Assembly: GCA_964187785.1 (NCBI GenBank)
Contig: OZ076409.1
Span: forward strand, 2,668,001 to 2,732,000
Source of the DNA: Amphiscolops sp. MND2022
Lineage: Eukaryota
Direction: 5' to 3'
Length of the DNA: 64,000 nucleotides
Shown here: positions 23,007 through 49,605 of the stretch, one piece after another
Layout of the letters: every line of letters starts with the position of its first letter
Numbering within the stretch: position 1 is the stretch's first letter
The notes under the pieces: generated by a model
Seen by the model: the letters and a program-made list of their open reading frames with translations, nothing else
Databases searched by the model: none
What the model was told of the DNA's origin: nothing
Program-made: the position numbers and the translations under genes

Positions 23007-23625
23007 TGCCAAAAAGTTAACTATAAATTCAATTGAATTTATATTAAATTTCTACTCACAAGTTTTGTTGAGGGTTGTTCTGAACTCCGTTGAGAGCAAG
23101 TCGAATGCGTAGTTTGCGGAACTTTCGGATAACTTTGAGATAAACGAGAAACATGGTAACTGAATCGAAAATGAGGAAAAAGGACAAAACTATTGCGAAC
23201 TCGTAATCCACTATTTGTCGCAATATGTTCGGGATCCACAGAAAGGAGCCGTTCAAAGTACCTTTAAAGAGATGTTGAACATGCATTTATACTTATCATT
23301 ATTTTCTGCTTTCTTAGTTATATATATTTTTTGAGTTTTCGAAAAAGTCTCTCATTTTGAGCCAATCTTTTTCAATTTTCAAAAAATCCTCAAAATTTTT
23401 CGAATAAGTTTTTGAGAATTCTTCTTCTATGTAATGGAAAAAATTTCGAAATACTTAGAAAGTTTTATTGAGAAAATGAAAAAATATATATAGAAATTGT
23501 TGTACAAAGTTAAGGAAGTGATTCTGGTATTGAAATAATTTCCTTCTCTTTAACTTTAAGATCAGCTTCGCTTTTAATCAAAAGTTTTTTTTGATTTTGT
23601 CCATGGATAATTCCACATCTCTAAC

Positions 23626-24175
23626 CTTGCAATAGTCCAGAAAGAAAAGCCAGTGCAACCAGACGATTAACTCTGGATTTATTGAAAGCTCGTTTGAACT
23701 CGTGGATTCGGCAGATTGCATAATAACGACTGATTGTCGCCGTTAGAATGAGCAAATACGAAGAAATTACGCAAAAGCCGAACAAGAAATAATTTATGGA
23801 TTCAAATAACATCATGGTTCGGCTTTCCTTTTTCGCTCCTTTCAGCATAAAAAAGCGCTGGGCCAAAACGACGCCGATGTAGCATACGTTGAAGAAAACC
23901 TCGGAAAACGAAAGTCCGACCACCAAACGCTCGCTTGCGGAGGGTTTCCTTCGGTAGCTGAGAACAAGGATTACCAAACACCCGACGGTTATCCCAAGCG
24001 ATCCCAAAACAATGGTGAAAACTACCTCGACCGCGTTGTAACCAATGTAGGACTCCATACCTCCGTTATTTGTAATAACTTCCTGGTTATTACGGGCTGA
24101 GATTCCCGCTTCTGAGGGAAATGTAGCCAAGTGTGTATTGAAGGAGTCATTGATGTGTGAACTTTGGGATAACAT
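23626..24175 (-). CDS. Class A GPCR-like gene, first coding exon (TM1-TM4)
   Basis: Four hydrophobic helices; LSFSE (LAxxD-like) in TM2; ISRYYAIC (DRY-like) after TM3; donor CAAG|gttag. Confidence 0.85.
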
Positions 24176-30396: not shown

Positions 30397-30808
30397 CTGC
30401 ATTGTTTTTCAAAATCCCACCTGTCATGCCAGCATGATGGAAATATAATCTACTAAATATCTGTAATGTAAATATTATGTCTTATGTACTTAGATATGGG
30501 CAATATGGTGTCATATAATAAGAGCCATGGTTGTGAGCAACCCTACGTTACTTGTACTTTAATCCCTATCCCCCCTGAGTTTGAGCTATATATATTTACT
30601 TAATACTGAGCGCTCTAATTCCGGTGTCCGCACAAATGATCTTGCCAATAGCTTTTAATGTGCTATCTTATTCAATATTGGTTTGTCACGATAAGGGAGA
30701 GAAGTTTTCCGGTCAGACTGGACCGAGAGATGTAAAATAATGGAATCTGTAACTTCTACTAGCTCCCTCGCCTCAGGACTTGTAGTCGTGACGAAATTCA
30801 GAAAAGTT

Positions 30809-31696
30809 CATCACTAATCCATCAGCGGACTTAGTGATCCTACAACTTGATCTATTAGTGAAATTACAGTGCTATATTATCAAGGTTCATCGCAATCACA
30901 TCGCCAAGATTGCGGGTGAACAAAGTGTAGGACATTTAATTGATTTCATTTAATGATCCATCAGCGGATCTCACGGGACTTTAAAATGCATGAAAAACCA
31001 TCCTATACTCATCGTCGCTTTGTGATTATTAACTTTCATTGTGCTTCTCATTTCTTAACAAGAGCATGACACGTCTATATTTCATCATCCTGACTAGCAA
31101 CTACAAGGAATGAGAAAGTACATCCTTAATTCATCCTAAAAAAGAGTGAAGTGCTGGATATCTGTTTTATTAGATTAACTCATCACTAGTTCATCGTAAA
31201 TTCATCGCTAGTTCGACTTGTGTTAGAATTAGCCGAATTTTTAGTTGAGTTCATCCTAAACTCATCGTTGGAATTTCATTCATTAGATTTTGCTGTTTTA
31301 TTGAATGTATTCATCCTAAAGTCATCGTATATTTGTCTTCACTGCAGAATTAGCTGTTTCACCTGTTTTATTGACTGAATTCATCCTGAATTCATCGTCA
31401 ATTTCACTAGTACTGGAAATTAGTTATTTTCGAGGAGAGTTCATCCTTTTACCATCGTTGATTTAAATTGTGCTGGAAATCATTCATTTTGAAGACGAGT
31501 TCATCCTTTTATCATCGTCAGTTTATATCGTGTTGATTTTCGAGCTAAAAGACCACCATTCATCGCATTTTCATCCAGAGCTAAACCAGACTTGAAAAAT
31601 CAGCAAATATTCTGACGAATTCATCGCGTTTCCATCTTTAGTTTTGAAGTATTGATTTTAGTGCTACAATTAGTTGGAAAACATCGTTTTCTCATC
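30809..31696 (+). promoter_or_regulatory. Phased CATC-N7-CATC motif array in LTR
   Basis: Pairs start at 30809, 30888, 30999, 31121, 31192, 31252, 31312, 31382, 31442, 31502, 31561, 31622, 31682. Confidence 0.75.
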
Positions 31697-31753
31697 CTGT
31701 GATGCAGTTTACTCTGGTTTGACTCGAAATTAGTATATTATTGAATGATTTGA

Positions 31754-31975
31754 GTTGCTATAGAAACCATGACACTGCGTGCAGGCAATTGCGACATTGT
31801 AAAGTGATGATTAGTCATAATTAGCGTATGTAGATGTATCATGTGGTTTGGCCAACTTGCGGCAGTTCACAACACCGGTCACGTGACTTACCAATTAGCA
31901 CCAACTGGCAACAGCCAATAAGAGTCGGCTGGTAAGAGATTTAGCGTCTTACCAGCCTGAAAAGACACGTGAACT
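31754..31975 (+). promoter_or_regulatory. Candidate LTR promoter module
   Basis: X-box-like GTTGCTATAGAAAC, E-box GTCACGTGAC (31878), two CCAAT boxes, 11-bp stem hairpin 31927-31957, second CACGTG. Confidence 0.4.
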
Positions 31976-32349
31976 GCTGAATTTTGGACCGCCATTAGAG
32001 ATTACTCAGACAAAAAATTGCGATTAGCTACTGTCCAGTTGGACGAATTACGACAGACTTGAACCAGAAAACACATCTCTTATTCATCGTAAATAACGCT
32101 ACCTCCACAACTCTGAGTAATTTCTTGATTGATATCTATCCGATGAAATTTGGATGAACTCTACTTAATCCTCGCTAACTATTTCTCGTTCGTTACTAGT
32201 ATCCTTGTCTTACTGTAAAACTCATCGCATTTACATCTCAAGTTCAGAAATAGTGAATTTGAGTTTCGAATAACAGTATAAAATAGAAAAATACATCGAA
32301 AATCATCCAGAATCCAGTCTTCACTCATAATTCCTTTTCTCCCACCTCT

Positions 32350-33855
32350 ATGAACCCAGATCTAGGCACTGAACTCAGAAGCGGAAGAATTATTAGTTCC
32401 TCATTAGAAACACCCGTTCAAACGGATCCAGACATGGCTCAGTCTTCTGCCAATGACTCTGATAGTAACGAGACTTCTGATATCTCGTCTCAGTTGTCTG
32501 AAATAAAAGAGAGTTATGAGAGAAAGATAAACGAACTACAGAATGAGTTCAGTCAACTGAAGGACTTAATGATGGCTGTCATAAGTAAGACAGACACCGA
32601 AAACCGACAGTCAAGCTCGAAAGGTCCTTCAAAGCCGACCCACACGGTTGGGCTCGACATGGTGACAGGAGCTACAGAAACCCGCTCCAACCGCCCAACA
32701 ACCAGCTTCACCAACTTCAGAAGTTACCAAGAAGACGATTCAGACGAAGGAGAATCAACCCCCAGAAGCAATGAGGAACGACTACTCAATGCAATCGAGA
32801 CGATCCCCCAACGGATCAAAAACACAACCACCAACACGAAGCTTCTGCAGACACACGTGCCAAATTTCAGAGGCCAAAAAGACAAATTCGTCGAATTTGA
32901 GCACCTTCTCCTCAACCACCTTAGCCCGCTTGCCAACAAAATCACCGAGGAGAACAAACTACACTTCTTTCAAAGCCTTTTGAGAGATGACGCAATAGAA
33001 TACTGGCAATCCATCCAGATAACGCCAATGACAACACTAAAGGACGTACTCGACCTCTTCAGAAAAGAATTTGCAAAAGAGGATCTAAAGGAAGTGGCCC
33101 GTTACAAATGGGATCAAGCACGCTATGATCCCACAACAGAAACATTCGGCGATTTCCTCAAAAATCTCAAGAAGACTGCCAAACAAGCCTTCGGCAATGA
33201 GGCCGACAGAATAATCAAAATGTTCCTGTTTGGAAAACTGCCAGTCGAGATTCAACAAGAGCTCACCATGGCAAACAAAGAAGAGAGCTCCCCAGAGGAA
33301 ATCAAAACCTACCTAATGCGAAAATACCAGTACCAGCAGTACGTCGCGCCACCCACGGCAATCCAACCATTCAACGCGGTCACCTCCTCAGCACCACCTA
33401 CGATTACAACGACGAAGCCTACAACAACAACGACGACCGCACAACCGACAGAACGAAAACGATTTGAGGGACAATGTTTCTACTGCGGAAAGACAGGACA
33501 CCGCAAAACGGAATGTCGCGCCCGACAACGAGACGAAGCGAACGGCATAAAGAAGGAGGATGCAATCCCAATGAAGAAAGCAGCCGATCCAGATAAGCCG
33601 AAATACAATCCAAAATTGGTCTGCCAGATTTGCGGTTACACAGGCCACTCAGCAAGGGATTGCAGACGACGTGTCCCTAAAGAAAGCAGTTCTGCATATG
33701 GAAAGATTCCATACGCAACGAATTCACAAGATGACAACAGAACTAGAAGACAAGACTTAAAACGACAACAAAAGCCGATGAATCCTATGCAAGCAGTCAC
33801 CGAAGAAGAAGACCAAGAAACCTACTCTGATGAAGACATAAATCAGGGTTTTTGA
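32350..33855 (+). CDS. gag: Gag (501 aa)
   Basis: Capsid-like region and two CCHC knuckles (CFYCGKTGHRKTEC, CQICGYTGHSARDC); the ORF starts inside the LTR. Confidence 0.93.
   Translation: MNPDLGTELRSGRIISSSLETPVQTDPDMAQSSANDSDSNETSDISSQLSEIKESYERKINELQNEFSQLKDLMMAVISKTDTENRQSSSKGPSKPTHTVGLDMVTGATETRSNRPTTSFTNFRSYQEDDSDEGESTPRSNEERLLNAIETIPQRIKNTTTNTKLLQTHVPNFRGQKDKFVEFEHLLLNHLSPLANKITEENKLHFFQSLLRDDAIEYWQSIQITPMTTLKDVLDLFRKEFAKEDLKEVARYKWDQARYDPTTETFGDFLKNLKKTAKQAFGNEADRIIKMFLFGKLPVEIQQELTMANKEESSPEEIKTYLMRKYQYQQYVAPPTAIQPFNAVTSSAPPTITTTKPTTTTTTAQPTERKRFEGQCFYCGKTGHRKTECRARQRDEANGIKKEDAIPMKKAADPDKPKYNPKLVCQICGYTGHSARDCRRRVPKESSSAYGKIPYATNSQDDNRTRRQDLKRQQKPMNPMQAVTEEEDQETYSDEDINQGF
32660..32671 (+). 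other. Primer-binding site
   Basis: TGGTGACAGGAG directly after the LTR terminal CA; TGG is complementary to tRNA CCA; cognate tRNA not identified. Confidence 0.75.
33846..33852 (+). other. -1 ribosomal frameshift slippery site
   Basis: G GGT TTT (X XXY YYZ) immediately before the gag TGA; pol is in the -1 frame. Confidence 0.85.
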
Positions 33856-36800
33856 TTCCGCCACGATTTCCACCCGCTAGAAACACAACGCGCGACCAAC
33901 GACTTTCGACTCAACCGACTACACACGACCGTCCAATGAAGAAATGGCAGCCTTCACTGGACAAACGACTAAAAGCTGACGACGTCTATCAGCGAAGACT
34001 TTCCAACGATGAAAAAGCGATGAGAAATGCACGTCAACTCAACGGCAGCCGCTTTTCTCCACTCGCTGAAATCAACGATGAACAAACGCTGAACTGGCAA
34101 CCAAACACCATGAGGCAGGTGGAAGATGCCAAAGAGATGGAAACCCACCATCTAGACGACGACTCGACTTCACACTCAACAATCGACAAACGGCTTAGTA
34201 TTAAAAAACATGCAAAACAGAGTAGTATTAACGTTTCAAAAACTAAAAAACATGCAATTAAAACAGAAATTCACGTTCTCAGTCCCACTTTACATTTAAA
34301 CAAGAAAGATAAAATGCTGTACGTCCCTCTTCAGTTTGACAAATACGAAAACAGCGCACTTTTAGACACAGGCGCAATACAAAGTGCAATGTCTGAAGCC
34401 GAACTGCGAAAAATAACAACGGCTCATCCAGAAGCCATCCTTCAAGAATTCCCCCCTCCGAATTTCAAAATTCAAATAGCAAACGGGAACTTAGTCCCAG
34501 TGCGTAAGCAAGCCTTACTTAGATTTTACGTTGCTGGAAAAGTATTCGAAGAAACGTTCCTAATCCTTCCAACAATGGGAACAATTTTAATTGGAATGTC
34601 CTTTTTTGAAAAGTACTCAGTCAACTTAGACATCAAAAACCACCTTGTCCACTTCCCTAATCACATGATGTCCATGCAAGTTAGACAGCAAAAGAACAAC
34701 AGATTCAAGACTGGTTTAATTGATTTGTGTTCCAGTACTAGAACAGTGATCCCTCCTCTCCATCAAGTGATGATACAGGTCCACAGTGACGCGGACATCT
34801 CACTTACAACTGGTACAGTTGAGGGCTCACCTGGATTCATGCGAAAGACGTGTTTGCTTGTTTCTCCAGCTTTGGTTGACCTAGACGAGGGCAAGACGAC
34901 AATCCAGGTCACCAACCCAAACAACCACACGTACACACTTGAAGCCAACACCACTCTGGCACACTTTCGCATCCCGACACCACACCAGGCGGCAAACATC
35001 ACGCCCATGCCAGTGGAACACTTGAACTTGATCACCAAGTATCCAGATGAAGCCGAAGCAGTGATCAACCAACTGTTCGTGAACCCTGAAATGAAGTCAA
35101 CCAAGTGGTACCCAACTCCCGAGACGTGCAGTGAGCCAGACAAACTCAACGCAATTGAGCGACGGATTTATGATGAGATTCTGGCAACGCGAGAGCTCGA
35201 GAAGCTTGACCCGTCCCAATCCGATGAACAACGGATGAACTTCCTGAAGAACTTCAACTGGGACGACTCGCTTCTTACTCCGTCCCAACGGTTACAGGTA
35301 GAGGAGTTGCTGGTAAAGTACAACTCCATTTTTGCTAGACACCGTTTTGATATTGGCATGAACACTGATTTTAAAGTTAAGTTAACACCTCAACATGAAG
35401 AACCTGTTTATTCACAAAGTCTCCCGACTTCGACAAATTTGAAGGACGATTTGCTCGTGGAGTTAGCCCTAATGCAAGAGTACGGGATTATAACTACTTT
35501 GCCTCACAGCAAATACTCTTCCCCGATATTTGCTCAGCGTAAACCTAATGGTAAATTGAGGATTTTAGTTGACTTGAGAAGAATAAACCACCTGATCAAA
35601 AACGATTACGGTGAGCACAATCATCCCGTAACAACAATTGCTGACGCTGCCCAACACATGGCCGGGAAAAAGTACTTCTGCAAACTTGATTGTTCCCAGG
35701 CCTACCATTGCATTCCAATGGCCGATGAGCAATCTGTCCAACTGTTATCGTTTAATTTTGGGTCTAGAACTTTTGCATTTTTACGTCTAGCACAAGGTCT
35801 TAATCGTTCTTTGTCAGCATTTACAGGAGTAATCCGTGAGTATTTGGACCCCTTGGTCAAAGCGGACCGCTGTGCCCAATATGTTGACGATATTGGAATT
35901 GCAGCACACTCACCCGAAGAATTGATTACCAACCTTGAACTTGTTTTTCAACAATTGCACAAAGCTGGTCTTAAACTTAGCATGAGTAAATGTGAATTTG
36001 GACAAAAACAAATTGAGTACTTGGGAAAAACCATTTCTAGCACTGGGATTGCTCCCATTGAAAAACGCGTAACAGACTATTTAACGAAGTTGAAACCCCC
36101 CAATTCAGTGAAAGCGTTGCAACGTTATCTTGGTTTTGTAAACTTTTACAGGTCTTATATTCCCCGTCTAGCTGATAAAACTTGTTGTTTACAGGAACTC
36201 ATCAAGAAAGACGTCCCTTTCAAGTTGAACCAACAACATAAAGATGCTATTTTTGAAATTAATGAAAGTTTGTTAAAAGCAACAAAAGTGTCTCTGAAAT
36301 TGCCATTACCAGATAAACAACTGGTAATCATGTGTGACGCCAGCGAACACGCTGCAGGCTATGTGTTGTTAATCGAGGATTATGCAGACCCGTCAGTCAA
36401 ACATACATACGCCCCTGTTGCATTTGGATCTAAGAAATTTCAGGGCGGCCAGATGTCTCTAACAATGTATGCCAAAGAGTTTTTAGCTATGCACTTTGCC
36501 TTCGATGAATTTGGCCACATTTTGTGGGGTGCGAAAAAACCCATCATTGTTATGACTGACAATAAGGCCTTGACTAGATTTTTCCAGGCGAAGCATATCC
36601 CGCCTTCACTTTGGAATTTTTGCGATCAAACCCTTCAGTTCAATTTTCTATTAGCACATGTTCCAGGAGTTGAAAATCCCCCAGCGGATTACTTATCTCG
36701 GCTTGAGATTAGACCCGAAGACCGTGTACATTTAAAATTGACTGATACTATTCCAATTCACAGGATCGAGATCGACATCGCCTCCCGTACACCAAAACAG

Positions 36801-38945
36801 GAGGAAGACGAGCCTGATTACTTCCCCGCGAGCGAACCACTCAGATGCAAACGCCAGAAGGATGTCAAAGAGATGAAATTGGCAACTGGCACTGACGTGG
36901 CTCATGACGATGGGAAAGGGATGAAGTTCACCAACTGTGAGAGAACAGCGGCCTCAGATGACTTCGCGACTGACAACCATCTGACGTACCGCCTCACAGA
37001 CGTGGACGAGCCGATTCAACTCTCGCAATTCATCCGTAAAGTATCATTATCACACCCGGTAATGAGTCAGGTTAGCCCCGCCGAGGGGATCGATCTAATT
37101 CAGGTCCAGAAAAATAACTGGGTTATCCAAAAAATGATTAGATTTGTAGCAGGTACTGAAATTTTGCAACACCCAGTTAATATGCAAGACCAGTTTTTTC
37201 AAAAGTTGTACAAAAATCGAAAACGCCTACAAGTTGTAAACGGCGTCTTGTACAGACAGTTTTTTGATCACACGGGACTAGAGTCTCACAAGCAGTTAGT
37301 CGTTCCTGAAGACTGTATTTTGAAAATAATTAGGACTCTACATAACAGCCCGGTACAAGGACACCCTGGTTTAAAGAAAATGTTGTATGAACTTCGTAAA
37401 AGATATTACTCTCCTAACTTAGCCTGTAAAGTTCAAAAAGTCCTTGACGGATGTGAAAACTGCATGAAGTCTAAAAGTGTAAAAGAAACGCAACTACGTC
37501 CACCGTTACAAAAAATCTACGACCCGTGCGACGGACCAGAAGACCTGCTGGAAATAGACACCGTTGGTCCACTCCCGGCATCGAACGGTTTTACACACAT
37601 TCTGACGGCTGTTGACGTTTTTTCGCGCTACCTGTTCGCCGTTCCGCTGAAGAGACCTGACACACATTCCGTAGTCAGAGGACTACTGTCGATCTTCACA
37701 AAACACGCGTATGTGCCCAAACACATTCTGACCGACAAAGGCACGGCGTTCACGGCTGAACTTCTGTCTGAAATCGCGAAAGCGGCTGATATTCACATCT
37801 CCCATGCCACGATAAAGCACGCGCAGACAATAGGCATGGTGGAGAGAACGCACGCGAAACTGAAAAAGATCCTTAAGATTAGTGTAAACGCAGACAGACC
37901 ACAATGGGACCGCTATGTCGACATAGCAATCATGGCCCATAACACAACGTATCATGATTCACTGAAATGTTCACCAACTGAAATTTTCCACGGAAGAACA
38001 CCATACAACTCACTAGATCTGCAATTCCGAAACGCAAACAAACCGGCTGAAACAAAGTGCAAAGACGTGAACGAAATTCTAGACAAAATGAATTTTATCT
38101 TCAGAGACAATCTAGACAACATCATTTCCGCCTATCACAAGTACAAAACGTACTATGATAGAAAAGCACGAGCACAGCCACTGAAGGTGAATGACTTTGT
38201 GTTCCTACTAGACCCTAAGTACGACTCTCAGAGAAGCAAAGAAGAGTTTAAAACTTTCCACTGGAAAGGACCGTACAAGGTGATTGAAGTGCTATCCGAT
38301 AGCAACTACATCATCCGCAAAGTAGGCACACACCAAACTCAGTGCGTACATCGCATGCGACTGAGATTGTTCAAACCGGAATTTCCGATTGACGACATCA
38401 ACGTGTCCAAACATCTCTACCCAGATACCGAAAGGGTTGAAGACACGGACATTTTCGACTCGAATATTCCGACGACCGACGAAGTAGATCAGAATGAGAA
38501 TGACAATCTAGATCAAGACTTGGTCGAAGAAGAGCCTTCAGAAGAAACAATTCCTCGGGTACAAGAACAACACACTCCACAAGTAATTCCACCAGAAATA
38601 ACCACGAGAATAGACTATCAGCAAGTAGAAACTGATCACAACAACTTTAGACCACCTACAGTTAGATTTGGAACGCGAGAAGAAATTATTCTACCGCCTC
38701 CCCGCGATGAAAGTAGGATAAGAGTACCTCTGAGAGACGAACAACACGAAAACCAGTCACAACAGACAAACACGCAAAACGAAAATGAAGAAAGGATGAG
38801 TTCTAGACCGTCTAGATCAAATCAAAGTAGGTACAGGTTACGTGAGAACCCTACACCGAAAACGTATCCAGACTTCCTCATTCATGAGATTACTTCAGCT
38901 AGAAACGCACTGAGAAAGACCAACAAAATAGACGTAACGATTTAG
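33852..38945 (+). CDS. pol: Pol polyprotein (PR, dUTPase-like, RT, RNase H, integrase)
   Basis: LLDTGA protease; LDCSQAY and YVDD in RT; CDAS/KEFLA/TDNK in RNase H; HHCC, IDTVG/TDKG/VER and WKGPY in integrase; uninterrupted 1697 codons. Confidence 0.97.
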   Translation: MIPPRFPPARNTTRDQRLSTQPTTHDRPMKKWQPSLDKRLKADDVYQRRLSNDEKAMRNARQLNGSRFSPLAEINDEQTLNWQPNTMRQVEDAKEMETHHLDDDSTSHSTIDKRLSIKKHAKQSSINVSKTKKHAIKTEIHVLSPTLHLNKKDKMLYVPLQFDKYENSALLDTGAIQSAMSEAELRKITTAHPEAILQEFPPPNFKIQIANGNLVPVRKQALLRFYVAGKVFEETFLILPTMGTILIGMSFFEKYSVNLDIKNHLVHFPNHMMSMQVRQQKNNRFKTGLIDLCSSTRTVIPPLHQVMIQVHSDADISLTTGTVEGSPGFMRKTCLLVSPALVDLDEGKTTIQVTNPNNHTYTLEANTTLAHFRIPTPHQAANITPMPVEHLNLITKYPDEAEAVINQLFVNPEMKSTKWYPTPETCSEPDKLNAIERRIYDEILATRELEKLDPSQSDEQRMNFLKNFNWDDSLLTPSQRLQVEELLVKYNSIFARHRFDIGMNTDFKVKLTPQHEEPVYSQSLPTSTNLKDDLLVELALMQEYGIITTLPHSKYSSPIFAQRKPNGKLRILVDLRRINHLIKNDYGEHNHPVTTIADAAQHMAGKKYFCKLDCSQAYHCIPMADEQSVQLLSFNFGSRTFAFLRLAQGLNRSLSAFTGVIREYLDPLVKADRCAQYVDDIGIAAHSPEELITNLELVFQQLHKAGLKLSMSKCEFGQKQIEYLGKTISSTGIAPIEKRVTDYLTKLKPPNSVKALQRYLGFVNFYRSYIPRLADKTCCLQELIKKDVPFKLNQQHKDAIFEINESLLKATKVSLKLPLPDKQLVIMCDASEHAAGYVLLIEDYADPSVKHTYAPVAFGSKKFQGGQMSLTMYAKEFLAMHFAFDEFGHILWGAKKPIIVMTDNKALTRFFQAKHIPPSLWNFCDQTLQFNFLLAHVPGVENPPADYLSRLEIRPEDRVHLKLTDTIPIHRIEIDIASRTPKQEEDEPDYFPASEPLRCKRQKDVKEMKLATGTDVAHDDGKGMKFTNCERTAASDDFATDNHLTYRLTDVDEPIQLSQFIRKVSLSHPVMSQVSPAEGIDLIQVQKNNWVIQKMIRFVAGTEILQHPVNMQDQFFQKLYKNRKRLQVVNGVLYRQFFDHTGLESHKQLVVPEDCILKIIRTLHNSPVQGHPGLKKMLYELRKRYYSPNLACKVQKVLDGCENCMKSKSVKETQLRPPLQKIYDPCDGPEDLLEIDTVGPLPASNGFTHILTAVDVFSRYLFAVPLKRPDTHSVVRGLLSIFTKHAYVPKHILTDKGTAFTAELLSEIAKAADIHISHATIKHAQTIGMVERTHAKLKKILKISVNADRPQWDRYVDIAIMAHNTTYHDSLKCSPTEIFHGRTPYNSLDLQFRNANKPAETKCKDVNEILDKMNFIFRDNLDNIISAYHKYKTYYDRKARAQPLKVNDFVFLLDPKYDSQRSKEEFKTFHWKGPYKVIEVLSDSNYIIRKVGTHQTQCVHRMRLRLFKPEFPIDDINVSKHLYPDTERVEDTDIFDSNIPTTDEVDQNENDNLDQDLVEEEPSEETIPRVQEQHTPQVIPPEITTRIDYQQVETDHNNFRPPTVRFGTREEIILPPPRDESRIRVPLRDEQHENQSQQTNTQNENEERMSSRPSRSNQSRYRLRENPTPKTYPDFLIHEITSARNALRKTNKIDVTI

Positions 38946-38972
38946 CCAAGAAAAGTCTCATTTTAAATCTGA

Positions 38973-41201
38973 GATGTATTACGGATGAACAAATCACAAA
39001 ACGAACGAATTACATGCAATTTTAACTTAAAAGGTACATGAAGATGTAAAATGGATGAAAAGTTACTAAAAATCACATGAAAACCGCATACAAACAAAAC
39101 GAGATGTAAAACGGATGAAAAACGATCAAAAAACCAGAAAACACAACACACAAAAATTTGAGATGAAAAAAGGATGAAACCACACGAAAATTTAGCTCAG
39201 ACACACGAGAGATGAAAAAGTGATGAACTCAGCCAAAAAATCGACCAATCAACATGCAATATTTACTAGCGATGCATTTGAGATGGAAAAATACCATCAG
39301 AATGCAAGGGCACCCACGTTCATGCTATTACAAGACTCTAGCTCGGCCAGAGGATGAAATAGCGATGAACTCGATCCAATTATTCATAAATTACATGAAA
39401 TCAATTAACGAGATGAATTTGTGATGGACACTACCATCAAATCGCGACCGAATTTATCGTTAACCTGACACAATACTCTAGCTTCGCTGGAGGATGTCAA
39501 AACGATGAATTTAGTCTAAATGGAAATTCGAAAATATTAAATGACTTACCAACACCTCTTTGTGAGGGGAAACACCATCAACATAACATCACAATAAATC
39601 AGCTAATTCGCAAACAACATGTAACTCCACGAAACGATAAAAAACAACCGACCTTATTTCGAATCATGCAACGAAATTATGCGACACAAAAATGAAATGA
39701 TCAATACATGTAAAGTTCAAAGACCTGCCAAATCAATGACGTCACGAAAGCAATTAACAATTCCAAACTACATGCAATACAAATGAGCAACGCACGGAAA
39801 TATACATGTACCGTTCAAGAATGAATGAGATAATATATGCAATTCACACCAAAAACATCCGAACCTAGACGAATAAAAATGAAACAAACGATCGAAAATA
39901 CATGAAGTCTACTAACTTACATGCAAAATATAAGAACTGACGAAACACCTACAAAACTAATAAAGGAGTGAGCACCCCCCAGTAAACATCAGCTCATAAC
40001 ATACAAAACACCCCTATCGAAAAGCTAAAAACATTCCTTCGTGCTGGCTGGCATTTTCTCTGAAAAGAGTGCTGGTTAGTTGAGGCGGGGAGCTCACAAC
40101 CATATTCGGATGAAGCTTGCTGCGTTGGTTATCCAGCGGCTAGTGGATTCTCAGTTAGTTTTGTAGGGGCTTTGTGACGACAAAGCCCTGTCCAAATGAA
40201 CGAAAATAAAATTAGAAAACAGGAAACTACCACCGAACATATAACGACATGTCAATAATGGGGCAACCCATTTAAAAGAGCACATCATGTAACAATCCAT
40301 ACATGCAAATACAAGAAACAGATAGTCTAAAACTGGACACATGCATAACCGTAGATGTCAATCACATTGATTGATCGGACTGACCGTCGAATGGACAAAC
40401 CCATTTCGACGAATAATGGCAAACAACCAACCGAAAAATTGACATATAGACTATATATAGCCCGAAACTACGAGATTCCATTTATCTGAAAGGAGCGGAG
40501 CAGCTCCACTCACCCAGCTCTGGACTGAAGCCACTAGTACCTTGCACGCCTACAGGCTATCAGTACCACTGCTGAGTGAACTTATTTTCGACTGCCACGC
40601 AAGCGGCGGTCACCAGAATTCGAACTAAAAATACATGCAATGACGTTCCGAAGTTGACAAATTAGAAACATGACGACGATGATCAAAACACATGTACCAT
40701 AAAATTCATGCAAATTCAAAAACACGACAAATGGTTATAACCGTATAACGCTAAAATACATGAAGAAAACAATCCGAAACACCGCAATATTAATAAAAAT
40801 TTCCTCCGGACATGAAAAATGCAACCCCCGCTTACGTTATAGCCAAATAACATCGAAAACACGCAAAAATCCGTACATTTCAACGCACGATGAAAAGAAG
40901 ATGAACTATACAGCAGAAACTGGACAAGACAAACTTGCGATACAAAAACGATGAACTATAGCAAATAACGCACGAAAGTGCTGAAATCAAACGCAAGATG
41001 AAAAAACGATGAAATACGTAGAAAAACCACATGTAACAACATGCAATATTTCTGACGCACCGAAAGATGTAAAAACGATGACAAAAACAGTTTTCACGAC
41101 GTCGCTTGGTCGACCGAGGAAAACGTGATGAAAATGAGATGAGAAATCAAAAATCAAACGCTGACGAATTACTTACACTACCACGAGATGTAATAACGAT
41201 G
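38973..41201 (-). promoter_or_regulatory. GATG-N7-GATG (CATC on minus strand) arrays downstream of pol
   Basis: Pairs at 38973, 39043, 39103, 39162, 39211, 39271, 39353, 39412, 39493, then again from about 40889 to 41187. Confidence 0.7.
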
Positions 41202-41542
41202 AATACCATAAAAGCGATGCGCGACCGATGATCTATGATACAAAAATACCGAGGACAATGCTTCAAGTGAACTGTTGGACGAACTTGTTGATTTACGCGT
41301 ACTTAATATCCTCTGTAACTATCACTAACAACTCAAAAGGAAAACAGATGTTGGGCACCAAAATAACTATTGTTGTAAATACACTGCTACCGATCTTTCC
41401 GACGTAGCAGAATTTTCTCTCTCTCTCCCCTCTCTATCCAGAGGCTGTACCCAATGTTGACAAATCATTAAAGAACTAATACTACAAAAACAATAATATA
41501 AACAATACAAATCTAAATCAACTGAGTTTGCACCATTCAAAG

Positions 41543-42480
41543 TTAATTGCCGATCTCTGGGCTCATTGCTCGCTCTCCATCCACTTCATATCCTAACTGT
41601 TCATAGATATGACGCCGGTAATCTTCATTCGCGACGATGCCAATGTCATCCCATAGGAGCTCCTCCGTGAAATCTGACAGATCCGTGATACGCCCAACTG
41701 CTTCTGAGACTTCATCCAAAAGCGGCCCTTCAACACTCTCGTACAAGCGTATTCGATGTGCCTTCAAGTAACTGACGACCGTAGCGCACACACTGCTGGT
41801 CACATCACTAGACATGTGACCCACTTGCACACACTTCGTTTCCAACGGAAACTGCGGACTTTCACACAAGCATAACAAGAATCGAAGGAAGCGAACTGAC
41901 GATTCACTAGCACACGCCCGGAACAGGTCGATCTCAGTACCAGCCGTAGCTAATACTTCAGGGCTCACAAGACTGCGATACTTGGCCACAAAGTTCGGCA
42001 TGTCGCGATCCATCCGTCTCCGCTCAGCTGACGTGATTCGCTTGAGTTCCAGAAGTAACTCCGTGAAACGGCTTGCCTCCTGAACCACAAGTTCTGTCTC
42101 TGCCTCTGCTAGAATGACCGGACAACAGATACTGAGGTGGAATGTCACCTCATCCTTCAGTCCCTTCACATTGAGAACTTCCTCAACGACCGCAAGCAGG
42201 AACTTCTGCACTCGCACTAAATCCTCTTCAAAATGGGCTAGATTTGCATAGTCGTCGGAGTGCACTGCAAACCGCCCCCGCAACCACTCTAATTTGGGTC
42301 CACTCAACTCCAATTCAGACACAACCAAGCTCAGGAAAGCACGTACATCTGTCACTGGAGGTAGAACAGACTCATCCACCACATAGACCAACAGGGCTCG
42401 TACAAAACAGGCGCTCTCATATGCCCAGTGACACCCGCGAATTGCACTGTCACTGAAACTCCACTGGTATGCAGTCACTA
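41543..42480 (-). CDS. Antisense hAT-transposase-derived gene, last exon
   Basis: tttcag acceptor, phase 1; KFLLAVVEEVL...LSICCP, RFLLCLCES and PLLDEVSEA resemble a hAT C-terminal half. Confidence 0.75.
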
Positions 42481-42619
42481 CTGAAACAACAAAAAGCGAC
42501 AAAGAATTGTACACACGTTTCACACGATACTCACAAACCAATCCAACCCCCCCCTGCACACAATACTGACTTAGCCGCCCGAACCAAACACACGAAATAA
42601 ATAATACAAGAATACTCAC

Positions 42620-42815
42620 GAGCACGGAGAACAAGACTCAAGACATGAAGCCGCATCGCAACGCCAGGATCACCACAGAGCACATAGTCTAGCGGATCAA
42701 CATCTCCCTCGTCATCAGGTGTCCTCAGTAAACCGCAAATGAAAGGCCATTTCTCACGCAATTCAGAGAGAACGTCAGGCACGTCCCACAAAGACACCTC
42801 GCCTTCTAAGACCGA
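42620..42815 (-). CDS. Antisense hAT-derived gene, exon
   Basis: ttgtag acceptor, gtgagt donor, phase 0 to 1; SLWDVPDVLSELREKWPFI resembles the TRW...WP segment. Confidence 0.75.
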
Positions 42816-42945
42816 CTACAAAAACAAATCACAAGTTAAAACAGTTTTATTAACGGAAAGATACCACCCCCCCCCGCAAAACATAATACATAGCGAGCCC
42901 ATTACAACCATAAACTTCGATAAAACAAAACTCTATGACACTCAC

Positions 42946-43431
42946 CCGCAACAGTTTGGGACAGGACAACAACAGATCATCTTTCACATAGGGTTTCAGT
43001 CTAGACTGCAAGTGATTAAGGATAACATGAACGTCGGTGCCCCCAAGAACTCTCGCGCTCGCAGCCACTATAAGTCGATTGATGTCAGCCAGTCGAACGG
43101 GTACTAAGCTAATCGTCCCAATTCCGGCACTTGAGCACAAGACACGATTTAACGGCGGGAACAGCTCACAATTTAGGCCGAGGGGACAGATCTCACTCAG
43201 AGCACCACAAAGCAGGTTCACAATCCACGAAACTAATCGCGGCTCCCAATCCTGCGTGTAGCTAAAGGAAAACAGGATATACTGCGAGACCCCTTCTGAG
43301 CTACACATGCTCACTCGCCCAACGACCCTGTCCGCCACGATGCCAATGGAGAAGCTACTGAACGTCGACTCACTCCACAAAGCAATCAGACGCCGCATGA
43401 CGAAGGGCCACAAACCCAAAATGATCACGCC
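42946..43431 (-). CDS. Antisense hAT-derived gene, exon (degenerate RNase H-like core)
   Basis: ttttag acceptor, gtgagt donor, 486 nt, phase 0 to 0; GLWPFVMRRLIALWSESTFSSFSIG. Confidence 0.75.
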
Positions 43432-43565
43432 CTAAAACACAAACGTAATACTGTACATAAAGCAAATCTGCAAACTCAGAAACATATACAAACTACATAA
43501 TTCAAATCTTATATTTGCCGCCCATTCGCTACTAGCTACAACTAATAAAATAAAAATATAGTTAC

Positions 43566-44128
43566 CACAATATCATCAAGTCGACACCTCCGTCCAAACA
43601 TGGTCACGTGCTGCGCATCGGTCGCCACCATTAGCTCCCATAATCCACATACACTCAGCAGGTCACAGTCCCGGTACAGAGCATCAATCACCAGACACAG
43701 GAACAGCCGCACAGTACGTTCCTGGCCTTCCGATTCGTCCTGTTCTAGATCTTCCCAGACAGGTTTCCCTGCGAGTTCCATCTGGAAAACTTCTGCTGGG
43801 GTAACATCTGGGCAACGCTCAACAATAGGCACAGTCACTCCTTCCAACAAAGCTGATTGAGCCACACTGTCCGACACTGACATCAGATTGCCGTCACGAT
43901 CCCGCAATGCTAGCCCGCGTCTAAGCCGAACCAGACAATCGAGGCGGTGATGTTGGACGCCCCGACAATGCTCCATAAAAGTCGTGATACCACGACTTGC
44001 AACCTTTATGTCCCGCTTGCACAACAAGCACCTCACATAAGATTCACGGGACTGATGATATTTCGCGTATCCAATAGCTAAACCACAATACACGTGATTG
44101 AACCAGCTCCGAGCGATCCGTTTCCGCT
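43566..44128 (-). CDS. Antisense hAT-derived gene, zinc-finger exon
   Basis: aacag acceptor, gtaact donor, phase 1 to 0; W...CLLCKRDIKVASRGITTFMEHCRGVQH (BED-like C2H2). Confidence 0.8.
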
Positions 44129-44786
44129 CTGTTTTAACACAACAGCATACATATCAGACACCATAGAAATGCACACAGCAACGTACCACATCTTATGAAC
44201 ATCCTCAAAAACCGAAAAATGCAAAAGTAAAACGACAAATCAAAAAGTTCACCCGGAGTGATGAAAAAATGATGTAAAATAACATTTTCATCGGGAAATA
44301 TAAGCGAAAACGAAGAAAAAACAAAAAATGAAAAAGAGATGTAATTGTAGACCACCAGGATGAAAAATGGAAACTTTAAAGAATGAAAGCCTCGAACGAT
44401 GAAAAAGAGATGAATAGAACAACTTTGAACCAAAATTGAGATATTCTAGAGCGAAAACAACTTAACGATGAAGAAGAGATGTAAACTGAAAAGAAATCAC
44501 TGAAAGATAGCGAAAACCCAAACGAGAAATTTTAAAGATGTAAAAGAGATGAAAAGTTCCAAAAAACGACCAGAGAGCGAAAAGACTATTGTCCAAAACT
44601 TTTGACGATGAGAAAACGATGGAAAATGAAAAACTGCGGAAAACATATAGTGAAAACAGAAAAAACGATGGAAAATGGATAGAAAAGAGAAAACGTGAAA
44701 AATGCTAGCGAAAGTAAAAACGAAAAGGGAAACGAATGAAAATCTACTGATCAGATACTTCACCGGTTTAAAGCTGTTTAGTTAAC

Positions 44787-45458
44787 CTGGCAGACGAGAT
44801 GCAATGGGCTCGTCATCGGAGTCCAACAGGCTGGGTCCCATTGGAGACGTCTCGAGGTCGACAGTACCCACATTGGACACAATACTTCCTGGAGCTGACA
44901 TGCCAGATGGAGGACTATGCAATGAGAGATCATCAGGAATTTCCAGTCGGGTCTCGGTGGTACCAGCTGAGGGAACTTCGGACGGGTCAACGTCAACGTC
45001 AAATGCCCCTGGAACATCAGCAACCGGTGGAGGAGGAGAAGCAGACAGGGAAGTCTCCACCTGGGGTTCATAAAACGTGGAACCATCTGCTGTCTCAGTA
45101 ACGGCTTGGACCTCCTTGTCCGCAGTATCCACACAGGCATCACTGGCTGCATCTATGCAAGCAACAACGGCATTTGCAGCGGTGTCAACTGTGACGCGAG
45201 GTGGAGGAAGAGGACTCCTGGGAGAGACACTGGCGTTGAGGTACCGATGGAAGCTCGGTGAGAGGACGGAAGCGGAAGCCCTCATCACAGGAGAACTCAC
45301 TGCACCTAGTGACAGGTCCTCAAGGAAAGAAGACAACTCTAGTGGAGGGGGCCCTCCTTGAGTGCTAGCATCAGCACTAGTTGCGGCGAAATCACTCGTC
45401 CCTACTCCTACGGAATAGCTGATGGGACGAGGCCTTGGTGCGTGGATCGGTGTGGGGC
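44787..45458 (-). CDS. Antisense gene, acidic S/P/D-rich exon
   Basis: tttcag acceptor, CAG|gttaac donor, 672 nt open, phase 1 to 1. Confidence 0.7.
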
Positions 45459-45701
45459 CTGAAAGAAGAAACAGTTACTGGACGACGACGATTAGAGAAG
45501 AAAGAGCGCGTACGCCGCGCGAAGAAAGAAAACCGGAGAAGAATACATCCAAAACTCATCTTCAAAAAATGGGATTTACAGCGAGTCAGTCATGGAGAGC
45601 TGTGAATGTTCATGACACATCCTAAATTCATCTCGAAGGTGAATTACATGGGTAATCGACCGCAAAGGACACTACATGCAGATAAGATGTTTACATCGGA
45701 A

Positions 45702-46240
45702 TCACATCGGAGTGTTCGGACGATAGCCTAGAGAAGTGAAAAGGAAATTGACAAACTCACTGTACTGCTGGATGCTATCCCGCAGCATGTCCCGCATGTG
45801 GCGGTCATACCACCCGAAGGTGATGCTGCCTAGGGAGGCATACCAGGGGTAGTGGTCTGAAACACCATACGAAAAGGAGTCAGCTACTGGACGGAGTAAG
45901 GATGAGATATGAGGGATTCGAAGACTGAACTGAAGAATGGAAGGATAGTACTTACACTGCGGAAGATACGGGACGTTAGGGGCCTGTTCAGTTTGCTGCT
46001 CAGGTTGATACTGAGGTACGTGAGATGCTGCAGGGATCGGAGCATCTTGAGGCGGAACTGTCTGCAACGTAGTCAGTTCGGAAATTATGCCGACAGAGTG
46101 AACGGAGTCCGCTAAAACCAAGACACGCCTTCAATTCCTAATTATTCCCCGGCCCGTTTGTGAAGAAGAGAAAAAATAGTGCACTTACTTTCTGTGACCT
46201 CGGTCTCTGGTAACGAATAGATGGAGTTGATATCCGACAT
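45702..46240 (-). CDS. Antisense gene 5' exons (46240-46189, 46111-45956, 45856-45761, optional 45727-45702)
   Basis: ATG at 46240; gtaagt, gtaagt and gtgagt donors, all phase 1, with matching acceptors. Confidence 0.55.
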
Positions 46241-47362
46241 CGCGAAGAATTGCAAAACAATCTGAAAAGAATGGAAGACGGTGAAAGAAGGAAAGAAATC
46301 GAAGAATCCAAGAGCAGAGAATTTGATCAGTAATTAAATGGCCTGATCAACCATGATTACAGAAGAACAAATTCAATAGAAGATTTCAAAGAGCGCGACG
46401 CAGCTTGAATGCCATGTTAATCAAATACTTGAATTCAGAAGATGAAAAATCGATGAAAAATCTCCGATTTCAAATACTGACAGCACTTTTCTTCCCAGTA
46501 CAACCAACTCAAGCTTTCTCTGAGAATGGATCGTCCTCTCCTAGGACTTGACAAAAAAAACTTCAAGTATTTGATTTGTCGACAGCTGCCAGTCTCAGAT
46601 CAATACCGACGAAGTTGAGCGGAAACGCGCAAAGGAAATCGTGGCGATTTCAAACCGACTTAAATGGAGGATGATTTATGGATGAGAATGCTACTGACAA
46701 CCGGTTGTAATTTCCTTCAGTTATAATTCAGTCTCAACCAATCAGATCGAGCAACAGTTACTATGGCGACGAATTCATCTCTTTCTCATCCACTCAAAAG
46801 TCGAGCAGCGGAAGTAACTTTTGACAGTTGCTATGGCGACGATTCATCTTCTTTCCATCGCGAGTAAACAAAGCGGCGGCGCCAGCCATTCCGCTAAACA
46901 GCATCGATGTCTCGTTGAGCAAACAATTCATCGTTCATTCATCCCCGACTCGTTGCCAATTTGTCAATGAAGCTAATCGAATTGTTTATTCAGCGTAGGC
47001 ATTTTGGAGGGAAACTTTTCTCCGAGAAATCAGCTTCTACCGAAAATAACCAGCCGAAACTCCCGTCAAAAGCATGACAACCAATAAAATGCAGATCAGC
47101 GGACATTCGATGGACCAAGAATTAGAGTTGCCGCGTCGAAAATTTTAACCGAAATCACCCAGGATGATGCCAGAAAAGACGATTACCGAAGGTCCTCTTC
47201 TCAGAGAAGCTCTCACAGGACAGAACAAACGAAGGACATGCCAGTTCAGAACTAACGAAGGCCATTTTCTCACCAACCAAACGAAGGACCAGTCGAAGCC
47301 AACGCCGAGACAACCATCCTCTGCACATTTGGCCCCTGCACTCTCAGTCCAAATCCCGCCCC

Positions 47363-47368: not shown

Positions 47369-49605
47369 TGTCATGCCAGCATGATGGAAATATAATCTAC
47401 TAAATATCTGTAATGTAAATATTATGTCTTATGTACTTAGATATGGGCAATATGATGTCATATAATAAGAGCCATGGTTGTGAGCAACCCTACGTTACTT
47501 GTACTTTAATCCCTATCCCCCCTGAGTTTGAGCTATATATATTTACTTAATACTGAGCGCTCTAATTCCGGTGTCCGCACAAATGATCTTGCCAATAGCT
47601 TTTAATGTGCTATCTTATTCAATATTGGTTTGTCACGATAAGGGAGAGAAGTTTTCCGGTCAGACTGGATCGAGAGATGTAAAATAATGGAATCTGTAAC
47701 TTCTACTAGCTCCCTCGCCTCAGGACTTGTAGTCGTGACGAAATTCAGAAAAGTTCATCACTAATCCATCAGCGGACTTAGTGATCCTACAACTTGATCT
47801 ATTAGTGAAATTACAGTGCTATATTATCAAGGTTCATCGCAATCACATCGCCAAGATTGCGGGTGAACAAAGTGTAGGACATTTAATTGATTTCATTTAA
47901 TGATCCATCAGCGGATCTCACGGGACTTTAAAATGCATGAAAAACCATCCTATACTCATCGTCGCTTTGTGATTATTAACTTTCATTGTGCTTCTCATTT
48001 CTTAACAAGAGCATGACACGTCTATATTTCATCATCCTGACTAGCAACTACAAGGAATGAGAAAGTACATCCTTAATTCATCCTAAAAAAGAGTGAAGTG
48101 CTGGATATCTGTTTTATTAGATTAACTCATCACTAGTTCATCGTAAATTCATCGCTAGTTCGACTTGTGTTAGAATTAGCCGAATTTTTAGTTGAGTTCA
48201 TCCTAAACTCATCGTTGGAATTTCATTCATTAGATTTTGCTGTTTTATTGAATGTATTCATCCTAAAGTCATCGTATATTTGTCTTCACTGCAGAATTAG
48301 CTGTTTCACCTGTTTTATTGACTGAATTCATCCTGAATTCATCGTCAATTTCACTAGTACTGGAAATTAGTTATTTTCGAGGAGAGTTCATCCTTTTACC
48401 ATCGTTGATTTAAATTGTGCTGGAATCATTCATTTTGAAGACGAGTTCATCCTTTTATCATCGTCAGTTTATATCGTGTTGATTTTCGAGCTAAAAGACC
48501 ACCATTCATCGCATTTTCATCCAGAGCTAAACTAGACTTGAAAAATCAGCAAATATTCTGACGAATTCATCGCGTTTCCATCTTTAGTTTTGAAGTATTG
48601 ATTTTAGTGCTACAATTAGTTGGAAAACATCGTTTTCTCATCCTGTGATGCAGTTTACTCTGGTTTGACTCGAAATTAGTATATTATTGAATGATTTGAG
48701 TTGCTATAGAAACCATGACACTGCGTGCAGGCAATTGCGACATTGTAAAGTGATGATTAGTCATAATTAGCGTATGTAGATGTATCATGTGGTTTGGCCA
48801 ACTTGCGGCAGTTCACAACACCGGTCACGTGACTTACCAATTAGCACCAACTGGCAACAGCCAATAAGAGTCGGCTGGTAAGAGATTTAGCGTCTTACCA
48901 GCCTGAAAAGACACGTGAACTGCTGAATTTTGGACCGCCATTAGAGATTACTCAGACAAAAAATTGCGATTAGCTACTGTCCAGTTGGACGAATTACGAC
49001 AGACTTGAACCAGAAAACACATCTCTTATTCATCGTAAATAACGCTACCTCCACAACTCTGAGTAATTTCTTGATTGATATCTATCCGATGAAATTTGGA
49101 TGAACTCTACTTAATCCTCGCTAACTATTTCTCGTTCGTTACTAGTATCCTTGTCTTACTGTAAAACTCATCGCATTTACATCTCAAGTTCAGAAATAGT
49201 GAATTTGAGTTTCGAATAACAGTATAAAATAGAAAAATACATCGAAAATCATCCAGAATCCAGTCTTCATTCATAATTCCTTTTCTCCCACCTCTATGAA
49301 CCCAGATCTAGGCACTGAACTCAGAAGCGGAAGAATTATTAGTTCCTCATTAGAAACACCCGTTCAAACGGATCCAGACATGGCTCAGTCTTCTGCCAAT
49401 GACTCTGATAGTAACGAGACTTCTGATATCTCGTCTCAGTTGTCTGAAATAAAAGAGAGTTATGAGAGAAAGATAAACGAACTACAGAATGAGTTCAGTC
49501 AACTGAAGGACTTAATGATGGCTGTCATAAGTAAGACAGACACCGAAAACCGACAGTCAAGCTCGAAAGGTCCTTCAAAGCCGACCCACACGGTTGGGCT
49601 CGACA
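47369..49605 (+). repeat. 3' LTR (2237 bp)
   Basis: Copy of the 5' LTR, followed by TSD CCACC. Confidence 0.96.

What the first reader, a model, noticed from the sequence alone, without database searches (positions are those of the whole stretch)
30809..31696. Helically phased bipartite CATC-N7-CATC array in the LTR
Seen: two CATC tetramers exactly 11 bp apart recur at intervals of 60, 60, 70, 60, 60, 59, 61 and 60 bp (31192-31682), while the intervening sequence has diverged strongly. A triple occurs at 31181/31192/31203. Inference: conserved spacing against diverged spacers suggests selection for a multimeric protein binding one face of the helix, rather than simple decay of a 60-bp repeat.
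Basis: partly seen in the sequence, partly recalled or inferred. Interest (0 to 1): 0.85.

Follow-up and report, generated by a model that had tools for sequence, protein, structure and literature searches.

The report
Retrotransposon coated with phased binding sites
A young 19-kb retrotransposon carries dozens of copies of a two-part DNA word, spaced in steps of about one helical turn through its ends, its introns and even its polymerase gene, and it also holds a predicted zinc-finger gene whose product likely binds these sites to keep the element active.

Summary
CATC-N7-CATC is a feature of the whole element, not just the LTR. It occurs 53 times in the 5' LTR plus internal region of a 19.2-kb Ty3/gypsy-type element (1.4 expected), in both orientations, only at k=7, against 3 times in 45 kb of flank. 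In the ten LTR units only the eight motif bases are invariant. Neighbouring sites in all non-coding clusters lie about 49, 60, 70 or 81 bp apart, steps of one B-DNA turn. Six sites sit inside pol (0.5 expected from synonymous shuffles). Their peptide imprint is kept, gained and lost in a sister family and absent from more distant ones. Neutral repeat decay is excluded. The element also carries a predicted 7-exon, 1085-aa antisense gene with a disordered N-terminus and a conserved CCHH finger, weakly BED-like; its two long introns hold motif clusters, its exons none. Best reading: a self-targeting array likely bound cooperatively by this element-encoded protein to keep the element active, working like plant VANDAL/VANC or Spm/TnpA. 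Binding, expression and function are untested; a host binder remains possible.

The parts
30422..32659 (+). 5' LTR, 2238 bp, TG...CA, preceded by 5-bp target-site duplication CCACC; holds 17 motif dyads (16 on +, 1 on -)
   Evidence: 4 substitutions and 1 indel against the 3' LTR
30809..31696 (+). LTR motif array: 14 exact CATC-N7-CATC dyads (one triple) plus one 1-mismatch site at 31072, spaced 49-111 bp
32074..32237 (.). Three further dyads in the LTR upstream of gag, both orientations
32342..33855 (+). gag with two CCHC knuckles; first ATG lies inside the LTR and the frame runs through the LTR end and the primer-binding site (TGG at 32660); no exact motif
33834..38945 (+). pol, 1703-codon open frame, protease-RT-RNase H-integrase order; 6 exact dyads (34008, 34125, 34425, 35223, 36861, 36909)
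38973..39590 (-). Motif cluster directly after pol: 10 dyads (9 on -, 1 on +), spaced 49-83 bp
40889..41230 (-). Motif cluster downstream of the antisense gene: 6 exact and 2 one-mismatch dyads
41543..46240 (-). Predicted antisense accessory gene, 7 coding exons (46240-46189, 46111-45761, 45458-44787, 44128-43566, 43431-42946, 42815-42620, 42480-41543), 1085 aa, all six introns GT-AG, no internal stop
   Evidence: similarity of relatives ends at the predicted donors of exons 4 and 5; splicing not shown by RNA
43566..44128 (-). Exon 4: C-x2-C-x16-H-x5-H finger followed by a helical region; candidate DNA-binding domain
   Evidence: ligands kept in 35/39, 32/39, 36/40 and 33/40 aligned rows; Pfam zf-BED E 0.11, under cut-off; model pLDDT 85.8
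44189..44681 (-). Motif cluster in the 658-bp intron 3 of the antisense gene: 6 exact and 2 one-mismatch dyads
45546..45708 (+). Motif cluster in the 302-bp intron 2: 3 exact dyads
46441..46943 (.). Motif cluster upstream of the antisense gene: 5 dyads, both orientations
47369..49605 (+). 3' LTR, 2237 bp, same 17 dyads, followed by CCACC

Best explanation
The CATC-N7-CATC array is one part of an element-wide, helically phased set of double-stranded DNA sites that is likely bound by the element's own predicted antisense zinc-finger protein, which would coat its cognate copies and keep them active. Shown from sequence: the sites are selected (exact core, fixed 11-bp half-site period, AT-rich spacer, neighbour spacing in steps of about 10.5 bp), work in either orientation, fill LTRs, intergenic gaps and long introns, and have entered variable linkers of pol. 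Inferred: (1) two fingers read the two 4-bp half-sites one turn apart on one helix face; (2) neighbouring dimers 5 to 8 turns away contact each other, so only dense phased clusters are bound, which gives family specificity from a tiny motif; (3) the binder is the 1085-aa accessory protein (finger plus large folded C-terminal part, possibly a dead transposase core); (4) its Ser/Pro/acidic N-terminal 350 residues would recruit activators or exclude repressive chromatin. My odds: selected protein-binding platform 0.9; binder is element-encoded 0.65; role is activation or anti-silencing 0.7 of that.
For: Motif selection: 53 observed against 1.44 expected, k=7 only; 47 exact against 8 one-mismatch sites in the six non-coding blocks, but 3 against 23 in the flanks; star-model chance of 8 invariant columns below 1e-9 at the observed linker identity. 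DNA-level action: 25 sites on +, 28 on -. Phasing: classes 49.3, 59.8, 70.1, 81.5 bp, fit d = -4.0 + 10.6n; 0 of 3000 controls reach the score with or without the LTR array. Pol: 6 sites against 0.53, 0 of 3000 synonymous shuffles reach 6; the D-x-x-x-M imprint is 45 against 5.8 expected in 14 own-family members and 33 against 3.8 in 14 sister-family members, 0 against 3.7 in 14 members of the next family; imprint spacings of 16, 17 and 23 codons equal 48, 51 and 69 nt. Candidate binder: intact 7-exon frame, 0 motifs in 3258 exon bases, 9 in its introns; conserved CCHH finger in a family of 77 proteins; weak BED hits by Pfam, PDB profile and Foldseek. Precedent: VANC binds short motifs in introns and intergenic tandem repeats of its own element (PMC5735166, passages); Hermes BED reads a 4-bp core plus AT-rich flank cooperatively (PMC10368747, passages).
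Against: No direct link between protein and motif was tested. The BED assignment never reached significance (Pfam E 0.019 at best among 57 rows, Foldseek E 1.2 to 4.1). Relatives at 51-59% identity in exon 5 exist while the pol family at about 60% identity has no imprint: if these belong to the same elements, the gene exists without this motif in pol, which needs a changed motif or no coding sites; I could not fetch their DNA. CpG is not depleted anywhere in the window (o/e 0.92-1.12), so the VANC mechanism of DNA demethylation is unlikely to carry over. Spacings within a cluster share ancestry by duplication and are not independent; with unique values only, p is 0.0097; the period is poorly bounded (R 0.73-0.77 from 10.0 to 11.0). 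The post-pol cluster region folds better than shuffles (z -4.06).
Confidence: 0.45

Rival explanations
1. The sites recruit a host-encoded oligomeric DNA-binding protein (a germline or stem-cell activator, or a Sap1-like head-to-tail binder), and the accessory gene does something else.
For: All motif statistics fit any multimeric binder. Fission yeast Sap1 binds direct repeats head to tail and acts at Tf2 LTRs (PMC6053445, passages).
Against: The motif is almost absent from 45 kb of flanking host DNA (3 matches, all in one small TIR element), is restricted to two sister families by the pol imprint, and is spread through introns and pol rather than concentrated at a promoter.
Confidence: 0.2
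2. The binder is the element's own protein but the purpose is not activation: copy-number self-repression, or tethering of cDNA, circles or integration complexes to chromatin.
For: Same anatomy. Sites cover the full length including pol, more than a promoter needs, as a coat on the whole DNA copy would.
Against: The N-terminal exons are Ser/Pro/acidic-rich with few basic residues (exon 3: S 0.15, P 0.14, D+E 0.13, K+R 0.04), as activation regions often are (own knowledge). The family is very abundant (pol cluster of 1482 sequences) and young, which does not suggest strong self-repression.
Confidence: 0.22
3. The motif acts in RNA: CAUC dyads of the LTR pair with the complementary GAUG dyads of the internal clusters, or form hairpins for packaging or splicing control.
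For: LTR sites and post-pol sites are on opposite strands, so they are complementary in the sense RNA. Region 38950-39600 folds at z -4.06 with two hairpins that contain a dyad.
Against: The LTR array folds no better than shuffles (z -1.18, 3 of 20 as good). Orientation is mixed within clusters. Linkers of LTR and internal clusters are unrelated (0.47-0.49, like shuffles). Long-range spacing in 10.5-bp steps has no clear meaning for single-stranded RNA.
Confidence: 0.05
4. The phased sites position nucleosomes or bend DNA on their own, with no specific protein.
For: With zero phase offset the best period is 10.0 bp, close to nucleosomal DNA; spacers are AT-rich.
Against: Positioning signals tolerate substitutions, whereas here all 8 core bases are exact; AA/TT autocorrelation of the masked linkers shows no clear 10-bp period (values 1.04-1.05 at lags 9-10).
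Confidence: 0.05
5. Neutral decay of an old 60-bp tandem repeat.
For: Tandem Repeats Finder sees 60- and 70-bp periods over part of the array, 78-79% matches; adjacent linkers reach 0.71 identity, so duplication did build the array.
Against: Only the 8 core columns are invariant in 10 units; the same dyad occurs in unrelated linkers on both strands and in pol beyond synonymous expectation.
Confidence: 0.01

Closest known systems
VANDAL transposons and VANC proteins of Arabidopsis (PMC5735166 and PMC10398659; passages read)
   Same: Element-encoded extra gene; short motif accumulated by tandem duplication in introns, intergenic and terminal non-coding regions; motif differs between related families.
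   Different: VANDALs are plant Mutator-like DNA transposons with 8-9-bp contiguous motifs and act on DNA methylation. Here: an LTR retrotransposon in an animal-like genome without CpG depletion, a bipartite 4+4 motif, strict helical phasing, sites inside pol, binding unshown.
Spm/TnpA and transposases as sequence-specific activators (bioRxiv 10.64898/2026.08.24.746577; abstract and passages)
   Same: A transposase-derived, element-encoded regulator acts only on dense motif clusters of cognate copies.
   Different: Plant CACTA elements, HTH domains, 8-10-bp motifs; the whole word 'retrotransposon' had 0 occurrences in that text. Transposase ancestry of the present protein is not established.
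Retand/Grande/RIRE2 plant gypsy elements with antisense ORFs (PMC11963269, passages; PMC7264820, first third)
   Same: Gypsy element with a long pol-to-3'LTR region, antisense gene predicted to bind DNA, tandem arrays of unknown role.
   Different: Plant lineage with TRP28 domain (no such hit here); no shared recognition motif or phasing reported in the passages seen; gene here is spliced and has a CCHH finger.
hAT transposase BED domains and subterminal repeats (Hermes; PMC10368747, passages)
   Same: Zinc finger reading a 4-bp core with AT-rich flank, cooperatively, on repeats scattered along the element; oligomeric protein.
   Different: There the sites assemble a cut-and-paste transpososome at the ends; here they cover a retroelement, and the BED match is below significance.
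Sap1 at Tf LTRs in fission yeast (PMC6053445, passages)
   Same: Head-to-tail protein binding to direct repeats associated with LTR elements.
   Different: Host-encoded, replication-fork barrier and integration guide; not spread through the element's introns and pol.

Membership tests
Ty3/gypsy LTR retrotransposon | Two LTRs with TG...CA ends and a short target-site duplication | tested here: met
   2238/2237 bp, 4 substitutions and 1 indel, 5-bp duplication
Ty3/gypsy LTR retrotransposon | gag with CCHC knuckle; pol in the order protease, RT, RNase H, integrase | tested here: met
   Pfam zf-CCHC, RVT_1, RT_RNaseH, Integrase_H2C2, rve in that order; protease hit weak, E 0.006
Ty3/gypsy LTR retrotransposon | Primer-binding site and polypurine tract | tested here: inconclusive
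   TGG follows the 5' LTR; priming tRNA not identified; only a short purine run before the 3' LTR
VANDAL/VANC anti-silencing system | Host element is a Mutator-like DNA transposon | tested here: not met
   The element is an LTR retrotransposon
VANDAL/VANC anti-silencing system | Short motif accumulated in tandem in introns, intergenic and terminal non-coding regions of the element | tested here: met
   47 of 53 sites in six non-coding blocks, 9 in two introns, 0 in accessory exons
VANDAL/VANC anti-silencing system | Motif specific to a family and different between related families | tested here: inconclusive
   Pol imprint in two sister families, absent in others; DNA of relatives could not be fetched, so a different motif was not seen
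VANDAL/VANC anti-silencing system | Element-encoded protein binds the motif in vitro and in vivo | not testable with these tools
   Needs EMSA or chromatin profiling
VANDAL/VANC anti-silencing system | Loss of DNA methylation over cognate copies | tested here: inconclusive
   No methylation data; CpG o/e 0.92-1.12 in element and flanks suggests little methylation to remove
Retand-type plant gypsy elements | Long pol-to-3'LTR region with antisense gene and tandem arrays | tested here: met
   8.4-kb region, 7-exon antisense model, motif arrays
Retand-type plant gypsy elements | TRP28 (PF04195) domain | tested here: not met
   No hit in the six antisense frames scanned at E up to 1 nor in alignments A1, A3
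BED finger / hAT transposase derivative | CCHH or CCHC zinc finger of BED type | tested here: inconclusive
   Ligands conserved; zf-BED in 3 of 57 rows, best E 0.019, under cut-off; ZBED2 profile E 0.76; Foldseek ranks Hermes first at E 1.2, ZBED2 and ZBED1 at E 3.0 and 4.1
BED finger / hAT transposase derivative | RNase H-like catalytic core and C-terminal dimerisation domain after the finger | tested here: inconclusive
   Exon 5 model has strands then helices but pLDDT 39.9; fold and profile searches gave nothing significant. Likeness in domain order is recalled, from no call
BED finger / hAT transposase derivative | Terminal inverted repeats and 8-bp duplication around the gene (nested DNA transposon) | not tested
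   Not searched specifically; no long inverted repeat in this region among the 25 longest of 31 listed

The most novel reading that the evidence does not exclude
An animal LTR retrotransposon lineage captured a hAT-type transposase gene, disabled its catalysis and turned it into a self-recognising oligomer that wraps the whole element on a helically phased lattice of 4+4-bp sites, even rewriting its own pol codons to host them, and so shields its copies from host heterochromatin: a retrotransposon-encoded, sequence-specific anti-silencing system in animals.
Probability: 0.3. Interest if true: 0.9.

Novelty: new variant of a known kind. Interest (0 to 1): 0.76.

Why it matters
Sequence-specific, element-encoded anti-silencing is described for plant DNA transposons; the papers found on antisense genes and tandem arrays in gypsy elements call their function unknown. 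This element offers an unusually clean test: a candidate binder, an exact motif, a spacing rule and family-specific turnover, in a family with over a thousand pol sequences on record. If true it would show how a retrotransposon can mark its own copies against host silencing, how a 4-bp word gains specificity through phasing, and that DNA-binding constraints can shape pol protein sequence. Searches for such a system in LTR elements listed none by title or abstract start; the library lacks most subscription papers.

Full report
1. Observation. They lie in the 5' LTR (30422-32659) of a 19.2-kb element whose 3' LTR (47369-49605) differs by 4 substitutions and 1 indel and which is flanked by a 5-bp duplication. 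gag and a 1703-codon pol with protease, RT, RNase H and integrase in gypsy order are open; the pol cluster holds 1482 sequences. It is a young member of a large family. The host is not identified; a receptor-like frame in the flank and spliceosomal-type introns point to an animal.

2. More than chance. The window has 73 matches against a shuffle mean of 1.61 (0 of 100 reach it). In the 5' LTR plus internal region there are 53 against 1.44 expected, the top of all tetramer-spacing pairs (z 42.9); other spacings from 0 to 30 give at most 3 each, inverted arrangements at most 2; 44,866 bp of flank give 3. In ten motif-anchored LTR units the eight core columns are the only invariant ones of 59, the rest average 0.38 identity, and a star model puts the chance below 1e-9 even at 0.52 linker identity, 4e-4 at 0.70. 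The units were chosen by the motif, but no slot of the 60-bp register is empty. Exact sites outnumber one-mismatch sites 47 to 8 in the six non-coding blocks and the ratio reverses in the flanks, 3 to 23. Tandem duplication built the array but neutral decay cannot explain it.

3. The motif is element-wide. Of the 53 sites, 17 are in the LTR, 0 in gag, 6 in pol and 30 in five clusters between pol and the 3' LTR; 25 are on + and 28 on -. Half-sites prefer T at the two preceding positions (0.68, 0.65 against 0.32, 0.34 for unpaired CATC) and the spacer centre is A/T. Linkers of the internal clusters are no more like LTR linkers than shuffles are (0.47-0.49 against 0.48). Same-orientation neighbours fall into classes of 49.3, 59.8, 70.1 and 81.5 bp; the fit is d = -4.0 + 10.6n and the best free-phase period is 10.5 (35 spacings of 40-130 bp, one-mismatch sites included; spacings of 29 and 229 and all opposite-orientation pairs left out). 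One-mismatch sites fill the apparent gaps in register. With exact sites only, 0 of 3000 jittered controls reach the score for all 33 spacings or for the 24 outside the LTR array; with the 18 unique values p is 0.0097. Caveats: spacings share ancestry, and the period is flat between 10 and 11.

4. Imprint on pol. Six sites in pol compare with 0.53 in synonymous-codon shuffles (0 of 3000 reach 6). Five are read in one frame as D-x-x-x-M. This peptide pattern lets proteins stand in for DNA I could not fetch: 45 against 5.8 expected in 14 listed members of the own cluster (of 1482), 33 against 3.8 in 14 of a sister cluster (of 153; 71-89% identical), 0 against 3.7 and 4 against 4.7 in 14 members each of two farther clusters, 58 against 50.4 in 117 proteins under 60% identity. 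Members are not independent, and the imprint in relatives is inferred to reflect the DNA motif. The sister keeps D and M while middle residues and linkers change, lacks one site and has two others. Neighbouring imprints are 16, 17 and 23 codons apart, 48, 51 and 69 nt, the in-frame values nearest the non-coding classes. Two more positions where own-family members show the imprint are one base off the motif in this copy.

5. A candidate binder. The minus strand of the extra region supports a 7-exon gene, 1085 aa, six GT-AG introns, no stop (my first coordinates were off and out of frame). Relatives lose similarity at the predicted donors of exons 4 and 5. Exons 2-3 are Ser/Pro/acidic-rich. Exon 4 has 77 relatives at E up to 0.001 (a few of the weakest are unrelated); in the 57-row alignment (56 of the 77) the ligands C, C, H, H are kept in 35/39, 32/39, 36/40 and 33/40 rows. 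Pfam, a PDB profile and Foldseek each point weakly to BED fingers, with Hermes transposase ranked first, none significant. Exon 5 has 20 relatives at 51-100% but its model is poor. That the domain order resembles hAT transposases is recalled, not shown. The exons contain no motif in 3258 bases; the two long introns contain 9, and clusters flank the gene on both sides.

6. Mechanism. Shown: a selected, orientation-independent, bipartite site with an 11-bp half-site period, repeated at 5 to 8 helical turns along the entire element. Inferred: a head-to-tail pair of fingers per dyad, contacts between neighbouring pairs, hence binding only to dense phased clusters; the binder is the accessory protein; its N-terminus keeps copies transcribed or free of repressive chromatin. 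CpG is not depleted, so the opposing silencing is more likely histone- or piRNA-based than DNA methylation (inference). Confidence 0.45; rivals: own protein with a repressive or tethering role 0.22, host binder 0.20, RNA pairing 0.05, intrinsic DNA structure 0.05, neutral decay 0.01.

7. Comparison. It works like VANDAL/VANC, where an element-encoded protein binds short motifs in introns and intergenic tandem repeats of cognate copies (PMC5735166, PMC10398659; passages), and like Spm TnpA, which needs dense clusters (bioRxiv 10.64898/2026.08.24.746577; abstract and passages). It is not a member: the element class differs. Its layout resembles plant Retand elements, whose antisense genes and arrays have no known function (PMC11963269 passages, PMC7264820 first third), but TRP28 is absent. 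The motif logic matches Hermes BED binding to a 4-bp core with AT-rich flank (PMC10368747 passages). Sap1 is the precedent for a host binder (PMC6053445 passages). Five literature searches (listings only) showed no LTR element with this combination; coverage is partial. One earlier AI note (e1-9828017) describes antisense introns in another retroelement; unchecked and not used as support.

8. Verdict. Real, strongly selected and larger than reported. New variant of a known kind; interest 0.76. The missing link is direct binding of the accessory protein to the motif.

Noticed in passing
window 39300-39560 (+): Two hairpins just after pol in which a motif dyad pairs with a degenerate inverted copy; 38950-39600 folds at z -4.06, 0 of 20 shuffles as good.
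   Followed up: partly
window 39000-41200 (-): Ten TGCATG words and extra splice-donor-like sites (41176, 40513, 39920, 39549) on the minus strand: possibly a spliced 3' UTR or a second small antisense transcript. TGCATG as a Fox-type splicing signal is recalled.
   Followed up: partly
window 32342-32660: gag begins inside the LTR and reads through the LTR end and primer-binding site, so about 100 codons are repeated in the 3' LTR. A TATA-like word at 30587 would put the array downstream of the start site (untested).
   Followed up: no
window 56976-57625: Small element with 20-bp terminal inverted repeats and 11-bp subterminal repeats; holds the only 3 flank matches of the motif. Could be chance from its 11-bp period or a DNA-transposon family with a related binding logic.
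   Followed up: partly
window 53039-53201, 54207-54587, 58982-59631, 16264-16372: Further short-period arrays (16, 22, 15, 21 bp), some in inverted pairs, typical of non-autonomous DNA transposon ends.
   Followed up: no
window 62415-64000: 83-bp satellite-like tandem array, 96-98% matches.
   Followed up: no
window 23624-24190 (-) and 7603-7887 (+): A 7tm_1 receptor-like frame (E 3e-06, under cut-off) and a DUF5641 fragment (E 8.6e-05); the only Pfam hits among 82 of 89 flank frames scanned.
   Followed up: no
P0273 and P0052: P0273 joins exon 5 sequence directly to the end of exon 7, a likely internal deletion in another copy; P0052 carries a low-complexity stretch, an intron-like stretch and the finger in one frame, supporting the exon 3-4 link.
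   Followed up: partly
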